A stretch of DNA of 64,000 bases from an uncultured Actinomycetota bacterium (lineage in GTDB: Bacteria > Actinomycetota > Actinomycetes > Mycobacteriales > Mycobacteriaceae): assembly GCA_963751485.1 (NCBI GenBank), contig CAVVUT010000018.1:312970-376969 (forward strand). The letters are read 5' to 3'. The notes under the pieces are model-generated. The model ran no database searches. It was not told the origin of the DNA and was given only the letters and a program-made list of their open reading frames with translations. Shown piece after piece: positions 14,877-23,708 of this stretch. Position numbers and translations under genes: made by a program. The stretch's first letter is position 1. Each line of letters starts with the position of its first letter.

Positions 14877-14936
14877 CGCGAGCAGACGCAAACTGCCGCA
14901 AAGTCGCAGGACACCGCGGACCTAAGCGTCTGCTCG
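14877..14936. repeat. REP-like intergenic palindrome (CGAGCAGACGC...GCGTCTGCTCG)
   Basis: 11-bp inverted arms at 14879-14889 and 14926-14936 between convergent genes; shares the internal CCGCAAAGTC with the copy at 22683-22736. Confidence 0.8.
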
Positions 14937-20944: not shown

Positions 20945-21315
20945 CAAGCTCAGCCGACGAACTGGTCACCGAATTCTGCAAGAAGTGGGCCAACCCCGAC
21001 CCTGAGGAGTTGGCCCACTTCTTCACCGAAGACGGTGTCTACCACAATATTCCGATGGAACCGGTGCAGGGACGAGAGGCCATCAAGCAGTTCATCGCAG
21101 GATTCATGGCCGGCTTCGACGGAATCGACTTCCAGGTGCACAAGCAGGTCTGCGACGGCAACCTGGTGATGAACGAGCGCACCGACGTCATGCGGCGCAA
21201 GGACGGCGACCCGATACCGCTACCCGTGACGGGGGTCTTCGAGATCAAGGACGGCCGGATTGCGGCGTGGCGGGACTACTTCGACATGGCCACGATCACC
21301 AGCGCCTTCAGCTAG
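20941..21315 (+). CDS. Limonene-1,2-epoxide hydrolase family protein
   Basis: YHNIPM, VMNERTD, AAWRDYFD catalytic motifs. Confidence 0.88.
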   Translation: MTSSADELVTEFCKKWANPDPEELAHFFTEDGVYHNIPMEPVQGREAIKQFIAGFMAGFDGIDFQVHKQVCDGNLVMNERTDVMRRKDGDPIPLPVTGVFEIKDGRIAAWRDYFDMATITSAFS

Positions 21316-21370
21316 TTCAGCGGTCGCCTTCCGCGCGAGCCGCCTTTCCTCGCGAGCAATAGCTCCTATG

Positions 21371-22426
21371 TCAAGCCGCTGCTTGTTGGGTGTGTTGGAT
21401 GCGGGTTTGATGATCCTGTTGTAGGCGGTGGAACACGTTGCGGGATATGCGGCGTTTGACGCAGCGTCGTGCTGCGGCCTTGGTTTTCCCGGCGGCCCGT
21501 AGCTTCTCGTAGTAGGCGTGGCCTTGGCTGCCGGTCATGCGGATCTGGGTGAGGGCGATGACGTGGATGGCGGCGTTGATCTGGCGGTTACCCGAGCGGC
21601 TGAGCCGCATCTGGCCTTCGGTGTTGCCTGACCACACTGGGATGGGGGCGACCCCGGCGTGACAGGCGAAGGCGGCCTCGCTTTTGAATCGGCTGACCGC
21701 GGCGGCTTCGCCGAGGATCTTGGCCGCGGTCAGTTCCCCGCAGCCGGGGATGCCCAGCAGCTGGGGGGCGACTTCGCGGACCCGTTCGCCGCGGCGCTTG
21801 GCCAGGGTGTTGATTTGGGCGGTGCGGGCGATGATGTCGGCCAGCTCGGCGCGCGCCAGCTCGGCCACCAGCCCGGGCATTGTGTCCAACCACGCCTTTA
21901 AGGCTTGCTGATGCTTGGCTGCGTTGAGCGAGCGCGGTGGGGGCGCCTGCTCGGGGTCGAGTTCATGGACATGCCAGCGCAGCCGGTTGATCGCCGACGT
22001 GCGTTGGGCCACAAGGACATCACGACGATCGGTGAGCAACTTCAACTCCCGCGACACCTCATCATGAGAGGCCACCGGCAGGTCGGGTTCACGCAGCACA
22101 GCCCGCGCCACCGCCTCGGCGTCGATGGGATCGGACTTACCACGGGTGCGTGCGGACGTGCGCACCGCATGCATCAGTTTAGTGGGAACCCGCACTACCT
22201 GCTGCCCGGCGGTCAACAGATCGCGTTCCAGGCGCGCGGACATGTTGCGGCAGTCCTCGATGCCCCAGATCAGCTCGACGCCGAACTGATCGCGCGCCCA
22301 CATGATGGCCGCGGTGTGTCCAGCCGTGGTGGCCTTGACGGTCTTCTCGCCGAGCTTGCGACCGACGTCATTGACGGCGACAAAGGTGTGTCTGCGCTTG
22401 TGCACATCGGCTCCAACAACAACCAT
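21371..22426 (-). CDS. IS110 DEDD recombinase/transposase
   Basis: VVGADVHK, WGIEDC, KSDPIDA (D-E-D-D) and C-terminal PVWSGN serine; GAAGGAGG RBS; close resemblance to the IS1547 transposase as recalled. Confidence 0.95.
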   Translation of the reverse strand: MVVVGADVHKRRHTFVAVNDVGRKLGEKTVKATTAGHTAAIMWARDQFGVELIWGIEDCRNMSARLERDLLTAGQQVVRVPTKLMHAVRTSARTRGKSDPIDAEAVARAVLREPDLPVASHDEVSRELKLLTDRRDVLVAQRTSAINRLRWHVHELDPEQAPPPRSLNAAKHQQALKAWLDTMPGLVAELARAELADIIARTAQINTLAKRRGERVREVAPQLLGIPGCGELTAAKILGEAAAVSRFKSEAAFACHAGVAPIPVWSGNTEGQMRLSRSGNRQINAAIHVIALTQIRMTGSQGHAYYEKLRAAGKTKAAARRCVKRRISRNVFHRLQQDHQTRIQHTQQAAA

Positions 22427-22449
22427 GAAGGTTGCCTCCTTCACTCAGA

Positions 22450-22620
22450 GGGTGGTGAGGTTGGGCTGGTCGGCGGACACATCTCAGTCGGGGCGGTTGC
22501 CACGCTCCTATCAAGTCACGCCGGCCGGTCCTTCTCACCCGATGTCGGCACTACTGCTCAACGCCAACCCGCAGGCGGCAGACGCAAAGTGAGCCAAACA
22601 CCGGGTGATCCAGAACCAAC
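22450..22620 (-). ncRNA. Predicted bridge RNA of the IS110 element
   Basis: Target-matching segments at 22578-22588 and 22554-22559 flank a CGCC/GGCG stem; donor-matching segments at 22504-22511 and 22483-22488; ends approximate. Confidence 0.7.
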
Positions 22621-22682
22621 CACCACGCCACGGCACCTGTCACGGCGACACACCCCAACGCGGCACACCCACATTCACACTG

Positions 22683-22736
22683 AGACGCAAAAGTCCGCAA
22701 AGTCCGAGGAGAAGCCGAACTTTTGCGTCTGCTCGC
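22683..22736. repeat. REP-like palindrome interrupted by IS110 (first part of the left arm at 21351-21357)
   Basis: Rejoined left arm GCGAGCAGACGCAAAAGT is the exact reverse complement of ACTTTTGCGTCTGCTCGC (22719-22736). Confidence 0.85.
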
Positions 22737-22745
22737 CGAAGAAAA

Positions 22746-23708
22746 CTAGGCCAACAACCGGACCGAGGGGTGGCGGGTGTCGGTGAGGATCTCGAACATG
22801 GCCCGGCGGGTGGCGACGAGCTCGGCCGTCATTCCGCTGCCGGACAATCGGATTCGACACGTCGCGAGTGCCGAGTTGTAGCAGTACTTCGAGTGCCCGC
22901 CGGTGTCGGTGTACGTCAGGCCGATGACGTCGTGCGGGTCGGCGGTTATCTCGCCGTCGAGCGTCACGTCATCGACGCGGGCACCGAACGTCCAGCTGAA
23001 CGGCCTGTACTCACCGCGCGTGTGCCGGATCGCAAGGACCGATCGCACAGCCACTTCGCGCCCGTCATGGCGAAGCACGAACAGCGTCGCGGCCGGCAGC
23101 GAGACGGGGCCGAAACCCGCGTGCGCGGTGACGATCTCCAGGCTCGAATCGGGCGCGTCGTCGAAACCGCACACCTGCCCGAACGCATAGGCGGGTGTGT
23201 GCCTGCGGCCCCAGTTGTGGTTGACGCTGCCGGTCCATCCGTCGACCTGAAAGCGGACGTCGTCGAGCTCCACAGTGCCGTCGAAGCCGGCCAGCGGGTG
23301 GCGCACCATCGTCTTGGCGGACGGGAACTTCGCCTTGTAACCACGCTCGGTGAGCAGCTTGACGGGGCGTTCATCACCCCGGGTGATCTGCAGGTCCCAG
23401 CGCGCTGACCGGTCGCCGGTGACGGTGCCGCATGCTGCGTTGTCGTCGATGGTGGTCTCGCCGATCCTGGCGGTCCAGGTGTCGTATTGGAAGTCGGACT
23501 GGTCGATGGGATACGGCTGCTTGTGCGCACGATTTCCTGCGCCGTCGGGGTCGAAGAGCATCACCCACGCGTCGGCGACCGGTGCGCCCGCCGTCGGCAG
23601 CAACAGCGTCGAGCGCAGCCAGAGGGCCTGCGCGCGATCGGCGTTGTTCGCGCGGATGAACCGGCTCTCGTAGTAGGGCGGCTGCGGCTTCACCAGACCA
23701 GCATCCAA
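22746..23708 (-). CDS. Hypothetical protein, possibly AttH/tocopherol-cyclase-like beta-barrel
   Basis: 320-aa ORF; YYESRF and GSVNHNWG motifs reminiscent of this fold. Confidence 0.55.

What the first reader, a model, noticed from the sequence alone, without database searches (positions are those of the whole stretch)
21351..22736. IS110 element with a readable bridge RNA apparently programmed against a mycobacterial REP palindrome
Seen in sequence: the empty site (transposase strand) is TTTTGCGT-CT-GCTCGCG. The upstream non-coding end, read on the same strand, has UUUGCGUCUGC (22588-22578), identical to the target left flank plus core. A CGCC/GGCG stem follows, then GAGCAG (22559-22554), the reverse complement of core plus right flank. 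Further 3' lie AUAGGAGC (22511-22504), matching the element end ATAGGAGC, and ACUGAG (22488-22483), complementary to the other end CTCAGT. A TCACCC/GGGTGA stem closes the target loop. Established: this LTG-RTG-LDG-RDG order and a CT core are the bridge-RNA architecture described for IS621. Inference: this is an actinobacterial, IS1547-like RNA-guided recombinase that homes to REP-like palindromes; guide pairing could be reprogrammable for high-GC hosts.
Basis: partly seen in the sequence, partly recalled or inferred. Interest (0 to 1): 0.85.

Follow-up and report, generated by a model that had tools for sequence, protein, structure and literature searches.

The report
IS110 element with bridge RNA
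This is an intact jumping gene of the IS110 family that carries its own guide ("bridge") RNA matching both its own ends and the mycobacterial palindromic repeat it sits in; it is a well-supported new example of a mechanism described in 2024, not a new kind of system.

Summary
The empty site TTTGCGTCT|GCTCGCG occurs in at least 12 unoccupied copies of the palindrome in the same genome.

The element itself is 1,325 bp, at 21358-22682 on the minus strand. A second copy, 99% identical, sits in another repeat copy.

The protein is an IS110 "RNA-guided transposase". It has the DEDD and Ser residues of IS621.

The 5' leader folds into two stem-and-internal-loop modules. This structure is conserved in about 150 relatives, and 34 of 40 base pairs show compensatory changes.

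All four guides covary with the DNA they should pair with:
- **Left target guide:** 0 of 5,000 shuffles reach the observed match to the left flank.
- **Right target guide:** 81% identity to the right flank, against 38% when shuffled.
- **Left donor guide:** a G/A change is mirrored in the element's right end.
- **Right donor guide:** six variants are mirrored in the left end.

Verdict: a new member of a known kind. Across the family, the exchange point appears to lie between the two core bases, which differs from the IS621 picture.

The parts
21358..22682 (-). IS110-family insertion sequence, 1,325 bp. It reads CAGTGTG...GGAGCTATT, or equally TCAGTG...GCTAT shifted by one base.
   Evidence: Boundaries come from the second 99% copy (L002) and from unoccupied sites in the same genome. 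Length.
21371..22426 (-). Recombinase gene, 351 aa. Start ATG at 22426, preceded by AGGAGG at 22440-22435.
   Evidence: Pfam DEDD_Tnp_IS110 and Transposase_20. NCBIfam NF033542 at 196.7 bits. D7, E57, D99, D102 and S276 align with the catalytic residues of IS621.
22465..22614 (-). Bridge RNA core: target-binding loop module followed by donor-binding loop module. An outer helix extends the structure to 22624-22452.
   Evidence: Covariance model R1 scores 167.6 bits here. Structure covariation. Fold z-score -2.8.
22580..22588 (-). Left target guide UUUGCGUCU. It has the same sense as the target's left half plus core.
   Evidence: Identical to flank 22691-22683. Covaries with the left flank in relatives.
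22551..22559 (-). Right target guide GAGC, then core complement AG, then handshake guide UAG.
   Evidence: The reverse complement CTA-CT-GCTC compares with the right junction CTA-TT-GCTC. Covariation of the right-flank part and the donor-end part is shown.
22504..22511 (-). Left donor guide AUAGGAGC.
   Evidence: Identical to the right end at 21369-21362. A G-to-A change is mirrored in guide and end in L048, L063, L064, L066 and L087.
22480..22488 (-). Right donor guide ACUG, then AG, then handshake guide AUG.
   Evidence: Complementary to CT-CAGT at the left junction (22684-22679). Guide and end covary in relatives as TCAAT, TCAGT, TTAAT, TTAGT, TCTAT and GTTGT.
22683..22691 (-). Left target half plus core, TTTGCGT-CT, in the flanking palindrome arm.
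21351..21357 (-). Right target half, GCTCGCG. This is the remainder of the split palindrome arm.
22720..22737 (-). Other arm of the host palindrome, intact (GGCGAGCAGACGCAAAAG). It is a second potential target on the opposite strand.
21358..21374 (-). Right end, TTGACATAGGAGCTATT. It holds a perfect -35 hexamer TTGACA (21374-21369), the guide-matched ATAGGAGC, TA at handshake positions 6-7, and TT at core positions 8-9.
   Evidence: Conserved in nearly all of the ~80 relatives inspected, a few with one-base variants. Handshake covariation.
22671..22682 (-). Left end, CAGTGT followed by GAATGT. GAATGT is a candidate weak -10 lying 17 nt from TTGACA once the ends are joined in a circle.
   Evidence: By inspection of the joined ends. 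The A at position 2 and T at position 6 are kept in 13 relatives. This is inference only; no promoter was found in the integrated form.

Best explanation
This is an intact, recently active insertion sequence of the IS110 group. Its DEDD/Ser recombinase is guided by a bridge RNA of about 150-170 nt, encoded in the element's left end upstream of the gene.

[quoted passage not shown] Together they select TTTGCGT-CT-GCTC, one arm of a ~56-bp palindromic repeat that is abundant in Mycobacteriaceae.

**Donor loop.** The second loop holds AUAGGAGC and ACUG-AG. These recognise the joined ends of the excised circle, ...ATAGGAGC-TA-TT|CAGTG...

**Handshake guides.** Three bases 3' of each right guide (UAG and AUG) can pair with the incoming strand of the other partner after strand exchange.

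**What is shown and what is inferred.** Shown here: the sequences, the conserved fold and the covariation. Inferred by homology with IS621: that the RNA is made, binds the recombinase and directs recombination.
For: **Recombinase.** Pfam and NCBIfam hits are above their cut-offs. The protein aligns to the IS621 and ISCro4 structures with all five catalytic residues kept.

**Insertion site.** It is defined by a second 99% copy and at least 12 unoccupied sites in the same genome.

**Fold.**
- In 12 close relatives, 97.5% of cells are paired and 6 pairs show compensatory changes, with 0 of 500 shuffles as high.
- In 67 distinct sequences down to 48% protein identity, 93% are paired against 68.5% shuffled. 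34 of 40 pairs have changes on both sides. The covariation score is 0.508 against at most 0.081 for slid partners.

**Guide-to-flank covariation.**
- Seven target classes give 66 of 77 matches against a mean of 35.7. Only 1 of 5,040 permutations is as high.
- In 49 non-redundant right junctions, the right flank is 81% identical to the guide against 38% shuffled. The donor end is 88% against 64%. Both give 0 of 5,000 shuffles.
- In 48 left junctions, 4.52 of 8 bases match against 2.27 shuffled, with 0 of 5,000.
- The left donor guide and the right end change together from G to A in five loci.
- The right donor guide and the left end change together through six variants.
Against: - No transcript, excised circle or activity data exist.
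- Rfam 15 gives no family hit.
- No sigma-70-like promoter is found in the integrated copy. The -10 of the junction promoter is weak.
- The left donor guide stops 4 nt before the exchange point and does not cover the core, unlike in IS621.
- The element is flanked by CT on the left but TT on the right.
- Alignments A3 and A4 were fitted to the model's structure, which inflates the pair counts somewhat.
Confidence: 0.9

Rival explanations
1. The matches between the leader and the target and ends are protein-binding subterminal repeats, or a captured fragment of an earlier target. On this view the leader is only a 5' UTR that regulates transposase expression.
For: The hairpin at 22444-22425 sequesters the Shine-Dalgarno sequence, so the leader may also have a regulatory role. 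No RNA data are available.
Against: A captured fragment would not place the two target halves in opposite senses on either side of a conserved hairpin. It also would not change in step with the flanks in more than 20 target classes while the rest of the RNA stays constant. The fold itself covaries.
Confidence: 0.04
2. The element is a bridge-RNA insertion sequence by descent but is now immobile in this genome. The cause could be the donor core T instead of C, or the lack of a promoter.
For: The right junction has TT where the guides specify CT. No promoter is found in the integrated form. Truncated copies exist.
Against: Two full copies at 99% identity sit in different palindrome copies. The ORF is intact with its catalytic residues. 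The same TT right end is shared by elements diverged by 19-25% in protein sequence, in other species, each in its own site. This implies that elements with TT have transposed. A G:T wobble can cover the mismatch.
Confidence: 0.06

Closest known systems
IS621 of Escherichia coli, the archetypal IS110-group bridge recombinase with its bridge RNA (Durrant et al. 2024, PMC11208160; Hiraizumi et al. 2024, PMC11208158)
   Same: - DEDD RuvC-like domain plus Ser Tnp domain.
- RNA encoded in the left end, upstream of the gene.
- A target loop followed by a donor loop.
- Left guides have the same sense as the top strand; right guides are complementary to it.
- A 9-nt left target guide that includes the core.
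- A 4-nt right guide, then the core complement, then handshake guides.
- Targets a host REP-type palindrome.
- A -35 box in the right end.
   Different: - Only about 25-30% local protein identity, and no Rfam hit.
- The left donor guide ends 4 nt before the exchange point instead of covering positions 1-9.
- The handshake is 3 nt here, and 4-5 nt in more distant relatives.
- An extra outer helix encloses both modules.
- The donor core is TT against a target core of CT.
- In relatives, the second core base of the target is free.
IS900 / IS901 / IS1110 / IS116-type actinobacterial IS110 elements. My recollection: these show orientation-specific insertion next to ribosome-binding sites and start codons.
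   Same: Same host phylum and same IS family. A sister clade found here ends in ATAGGAGAAAC and inserts directly before NCATG, so the element supplies a Shine-Dalgarno-like AGGAG to the downstream gene.
   Different: The window's element targets an intergenic palindrome, not a start-codon region. Relationship to the named elements was not tested, because no reference sequences were held.
IS1111-group elements with seekRNA (Siddiquee et al. 2024, cited from earlier notes)
   Same: RNA-guided IS110-family recombination.
   Different: Their RNA lies downstream of the gene and they have subterminal inverted repeats. Here the RNA is upstream and the ends share no inverted repeat.

Membership tests
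IS110-family bridge recombinase system (IS110 group, IS621 type) | Recombinase with an N-terminal DEDD RuvC-like domain and a C-terminal Tnp domain carrying the catalytic Ser | tested here: met
   PF01548 at 87.8 bits and PF02371 at 80.9 bits. NF033542 at 196.7 bits against a cut-off of 140. D7, E57, D99, D102 and S276 align to the catalytic positions of IS621.
IS110-family bridge recombinase system (IS110 group, IS621 type) | Structured non-coding RNA encoded in the left end, upstream of the recombinase gene, with two internal loops | tested here: met
   Two stem, internal-loop and hairpin modules. Covariation supports them.
IS110-family bridge recombinase system (IS110 group, IS621 type) | Target loop guides (LTG, RTG) that match the flanks and covary with them | tested here: met
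IS110-family bridge recombinase system (IS110 group, IS621 type) | Donor loop guides (LDG, RDG) that match the element ends and covary with them | tested here: met
   LDG G/A covariation. RDG variants. However, the LDG does not reach the core.
IS110-family bridge recombinase system (IS110 group, IS621 type) | Identical CT core dinucleotide in donor and target, so that the element is flanked by CT on both sides | tested here: not met
   The left junction is CT and the right junction is TT, in both own copies and in most REP-class relatives; L026 has CT at both. Across the family, the base after the right end is any base.
IS110-family bridge recombinase system (IS110 group, IS621 type) | Handshake guides 3' of RTG and RDG that pair with the other partner after exchange | tested here: met
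   The TBL extension covaries with the last 4 nt of the right end, at 88% against 64% shuffled. The first base of the DBL extension follows target position 7 in three classes.
IS110-family bridge recombinase system (IS110 group, IS621 type) | Promoter rebuilt across the joined ends, with -35 in the right end and -10 in the left end | tested here: inconclusive
   A perfect TTGACA is conserved in the right end. It lies 17 nt from a hexamer that keeps only A2 and T6.
IS110-family bridge recombinase system (IS110 group, IS621 type) | The RNA is expressed, binds the recombinase and is required for recombination | not testable with these tools
A bench assay is needed.
Mycobacterial palindromic repeat (REP-like; probably the TRIT motif of Gardner et al. 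2011, PMC3152330) | A conserved palindrome of ~56 bp in many copies, largely confined to Mycobacteriaceae | tested here: met
   14 copies were picked up in the own genome with one flank as query. At least 119 stretches have perfect 13-nt arms, and named records are almost all Mycobacterium or Mycolicibacterium. Identity with TRIT is not verified, because the paper's text gives no sequence letters.
IS1547 | Sequence relationship to the M. tuberculosis element | not tested
   No reference sequence was held. Papers found give no ends or target.

The most novel reading that the evidence does not exclude
In this large actinobacterial IS110 clade, strand exchange effectively happens between the two 'core' positions.

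- The donor's C/T-T core is split. Its first base is the last base of the right end, and its T is the first base of the left end.
- The target needs no T at the second core position.
- The left donor guide stops 4 nt short of the exchange point, with a 3-5-nt handshake taking over.

This would mean one of three things: a cleavage register shifted by one base, blunt exchange, or single-strand (copy-and-paste) transfer, rather than the 2-nt CT overlap drawn for IS621. It would also mean a wider targetable sequence space.
Probability: 0.35. Interest if true: 0.6.

Novelty: new member of a known kind. Interest (0 to 1): 0.35.

Why it matters
This is a clean, high-GC, actinobacterial bridge-RNA element in which all four guides are readable. 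A natural series of more than 20 reprogrammed target loops sits on a constant donor loop.

That series is useful as comparative data for guide rules, including handshake length, wobble at the first core base, and freedom at the second core base. The element is also a candidate tool for mycobacteria and other high-GC hosts.

It also explains why a palindromic repeat family of mycobacteria, found in over a hundred stretches in the scan here, is a hot spot for this insertion sequence.

It does not reveal a new mechanism.

Tried and rejected
- **Rfam scan of 21000-23100 at E up to 10.** Only chance microRNA and lncRNA hits appeared, and no bridge RNA family.
- **Own genome file, and whole-genome or family searches with the model.** Occupancy of all palindrome copies could therefore not be counted.
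- **First explanation of the CT/TT asymmetry.** I first read it as a signature of top-strand-only inheritance under the IS621 cleavage register. I rejected this as the sole explanation because relatives with a non-T second core base in the target show the opposite parentage at that position. Only an exchange point between the two positions fits both.
- **CTTGA upstream of the donor guide as extended pairing with the right end.** Rejected. CUUGA/CCUGA in the RNA does not covary with CTTGA in the end. TTGACA is better read as a -35 box.
- **Literature search for the palindrome letters and for IS1547.** Nothing usable was found.
- **Sigma-70 scan of the integrated copy.** No promoter was found.

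Full report
**The observation**

On the minus strand, the window reads ...GGCGAGCAGACGCAAAAG-(loop)-GGACTTTTGCGTCT|CAGTGTGAATG ... GCTTGACATAGGAGCTATT|GCTCGCGAGG.

A BLAST of this stretch against the window's own genome found several things:
- A second full copy at 99% identity, on another contig (L002).
- A 502-bp internal fragment.
- A 23-nt left-end remnant.
- A dozen or more copies of the flanking palindrome that are not interrupted.

The uninterrupted copies read TTTGCGTCT|GCTCG(C/G).

The element is CAGTG...GCTATT, at 21358-22682, and is 1,325 bp long. One T of terminal redundancy allows the equivalent reading TCAGTG...GCTAT.

Every guide segment sits at the coordinates given. Of the 11 'identical' bases at 22588-22578, the last two (GC) are the first pair of an inner hairpin. 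That hairpin is conserved in relatives with other targets, so the guide itself is 9 nt.

**The protein**

The 351-aa ORF (21371-22426, minus strand) matches several family models:
- DEDD_Tnp_IS110 and Transposase_20 in Pfam.
- NCBIfam NF033542, 'IS110 family RNA-guided transposase', at 196.7 bits against a cut-off of 140.

It aligns to the solved IS621 and ISCro4 recombinases. D7, E57, D99, D102 and S276 fall on the catalytic residues (residue roles from PMC11208158).

**The RNA fold**

The leader folds better than shuffled controls, with z = -2.8 to -2.9. It forms two modules, each consisting of a stem, an internal loop and an inner hairpin. An outer helix, GGUGGUUGG/CCAACC, encloses both.

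I collected 80 relatives through the protein. I collected 80 more through the exact 19-nt donor-loop word TGACTTGATAGGAGCGTGG.

I built a covariance model from 12 close relatives (R1). It found the RNA upstream of the gene in 72 of 82 sources and in 78 of 80 sources.

The named structure is well supported on two alignments:
- On the 12 close sequences, 97.5% of cells are paired and 6 pairs show compensatory changes.
- On 67 distinct sequences down to 48% protein identity, 93% are paired against 68.5% in shuffles and at most 48% when partners are slid. 34 of 40 pairs have changes on both sides.

The second alignment was fitted to the model, which favours the structure. Even so, the GC, CG and UA exchanges at most pairs are not explained by that.

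**Guide-to-DNA covariation**

*Target loop.* Among close relatives the target loop differs, and each version matches its own flanks:

| Locus | Left flank | Left guide | Right flank | Right guide |
|---|---|---|---|---|
| L023 | TACGCGTCT | TACGCGUCU | – | – |
| L058 | TATCACATT | UAUCACAUU | GCGCTA | UAGCGC |
| L026 | – | – | GCTG | CAGC |
| L027 | – | – | GGTCG | CGACC |
| L028 | – | – | CATGC | GCAUG |

The statistics agree:
- With seven class representatives, cognate pairs give 66 of 77 matches against a mean of 35.7. Only the true pairing, 1 of 5,040 permutations, reaches this.
- With the larger set, 49 non-redundant right junctions show 81% identity between guide and right flank, against 38% shuffled.
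- In 48 left junctions, 4.52 of 8 bases match against 2.27 shuffled, and 11 are perfect. No shuffle in 5,000 reached either value.

*Donor loop.* Both donor guides also covary with the element ends:
- AUAGGAGC in the RNA and ATAGGAGC in the right end both become ...AGAAGC in L048, L063, L064, L066 and L087.
- The right donor guide follows the left end through TCAAT, TCAGT, TTAAT, TTAGT, TCTAT and GTTGT.

All four pairings of the bridge-RNA model are therefore supported by comparative data.

**The 'ATT' puzzle and the core**

The three bases after the right target guide and its core complement (UAG in the window) are complementary to the donor bases just before its core (CTA). This extension covaries with the last four bases of the right end across the family. 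The variants seen are AAAC, CAAC, CTAC, CAGC, TTAC and CTAT, giving 88% identity against 64% shuffled. This is the handshake guide of Hiraizumi et al. (PMC11208158).

The right end therefore reads as four parts:
- ATAGGAGC, paired by the left donor guide.
- TA, handshake positions 6-7.
- T, first core position, where the guides specify C. A G:T wobble is possible here.
- T, second core position, shared with the target.

The left donor guide ends 4 nt before the exchange point, unlike in IS621.

**The exchange point across the family**

- The base 5' of CAGTG is T in 48 of 51 left junctions.
- The base after the right end is G, T, C or A (22, 12, 8 and 6 cases). It follows the right target guide in 44 of 48 cases.
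- Two unoccupied sites lack the T: a tandem copy in L139 and the other palindrome arm in L177.
- In the palindrome-targeting class, the first core base stays with the left arms. The target's C is at the left junction and the donor's T is at the right junction.

Taken together, the products look as if exchange happened between the two core positions. Whether this reflects a shifted cleavage register, blunt exchange or single-strand transfer cannot be decided from sequence. A recent preprint argues for single-strand transfer in IS621 (10.64898/2026.08.31.748434).

**The target**

The palindrome has perfect 13-nt arms and is about 56 bp long. Named records are almost all Mycobacterium or Mycolicibacterium.

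It is probably the TRIT motif: 147 copies in M. tuberculosis, located at gene ends and restricted to Mycobacterium (PMC3152330). I could not compare sequence letters, so this is unverified.

Each palindrome offers the target on both strands. The other arm of the host copy (22734-22722) is intact, and another site lies at 14880-14892.

**Expression**

No sigma-70-like promoter is found in the integrated copy.

The right end carries a perfect TTGACA, which overlaps the stop codon and is conserved in nearly all relatives inspected. When the ends are joined, it lies 17 nt from GAATGT. Relatives keep only A2 and T6 of that hexamer.

This resembles the junction promoter of IS621 but is weak evidence.

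**Comparison and verdict**

The element works like IS621 and belongs to the same family by protein, RNA position, loop order, guide logic and handshake. It also shares REP targeting with IS621.

It departs from IS621 in three ways:
- The reach of the left donor guide.
- The non-identical core at its two junctions.
- An extra enclosing helix.

No paper in the library treats mycobacterial IS110 bridge RNAs specifically. However, the kind has been known since 2024, and NCBI already names the protein accordingly. Earlier notes of this scan describe several equivalent cases in other phyla.

I rate it a new member of a known kind, with moderate-to-low interest. The family-wide exchange-point pattern is the one lead worth a specialist's look.

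Noticed in passing
L128, L129, L155, L161, L162, L172, L107, L150, L028 and others: A sister clade with the same donor loop ends in ATAGGAGAAAC and inserts directly before NCATG or NCGTG. The element therefore places an AGGAG Shine-Dalgarno-like motif about 6 nt upstream of the downstream gene's start codon. In this clade the left target match lies 1-3 nt further from the junction than the guide predicts.
   Followed up: partly
L139:4117-4160 and L177:3089-3103: Unoccupied copies of the target lie next to the insertions: a tandem copy in L139 and the other palindrome arm in L177. They lack the T that precedes CAGTG at the left junction. This shows that the T belongs to the element and that the target's second core base is A or G.
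   Followed up: yes
L004 (own genome, contig C12:359356-359424): A palindrome half and TTTGCGTCT are followed by only the first 23 nt of the element's left end, then unrelated DNA. This is a truncated remnant of an insertion.
   Followed up: partly
L003/L006 (own genome, contig C4:26720-27268): A 502-bp internal fragment of the element, 98% identical and inverted, abuts a palindrome arm cut at ...TTTGCGTC. It lies 10 kb from the second full copy on the same 64-kb contig. It may be an aberrant recombination product.
   Followed up: partly
window 22425-22444 (minus strand): The hairpin GUGAAGGAGGCAACCUUCAU pairs the Shine-Dalgarno sequence with the bases just before the ATG and is followed by GGUUGUUGUU. 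It could end the guide RNA or limit translation of the recombinase.
   Followed up: no
L031-L097: The more distant clade (~50% protein identity; Streptomyces, Brachybacterium, Kribbella and others) keeps the same two-loop RNA. Most members target TTTCTTCGC|...(C/G)GGAGCTCGACC(G/C), a short hairpin-forming site. The handshake is 5 nt (CGAUG against GCATCG of the right end).
   Followed up: partly
window 14880-14892 and 22722-22734: Two further perfect 13-nt target words (TTTGCGTCTGCTC) occur in the window. One is in another palindrome copy and the other is in the intact arm of the occupied palindrome.
   Followed up: no
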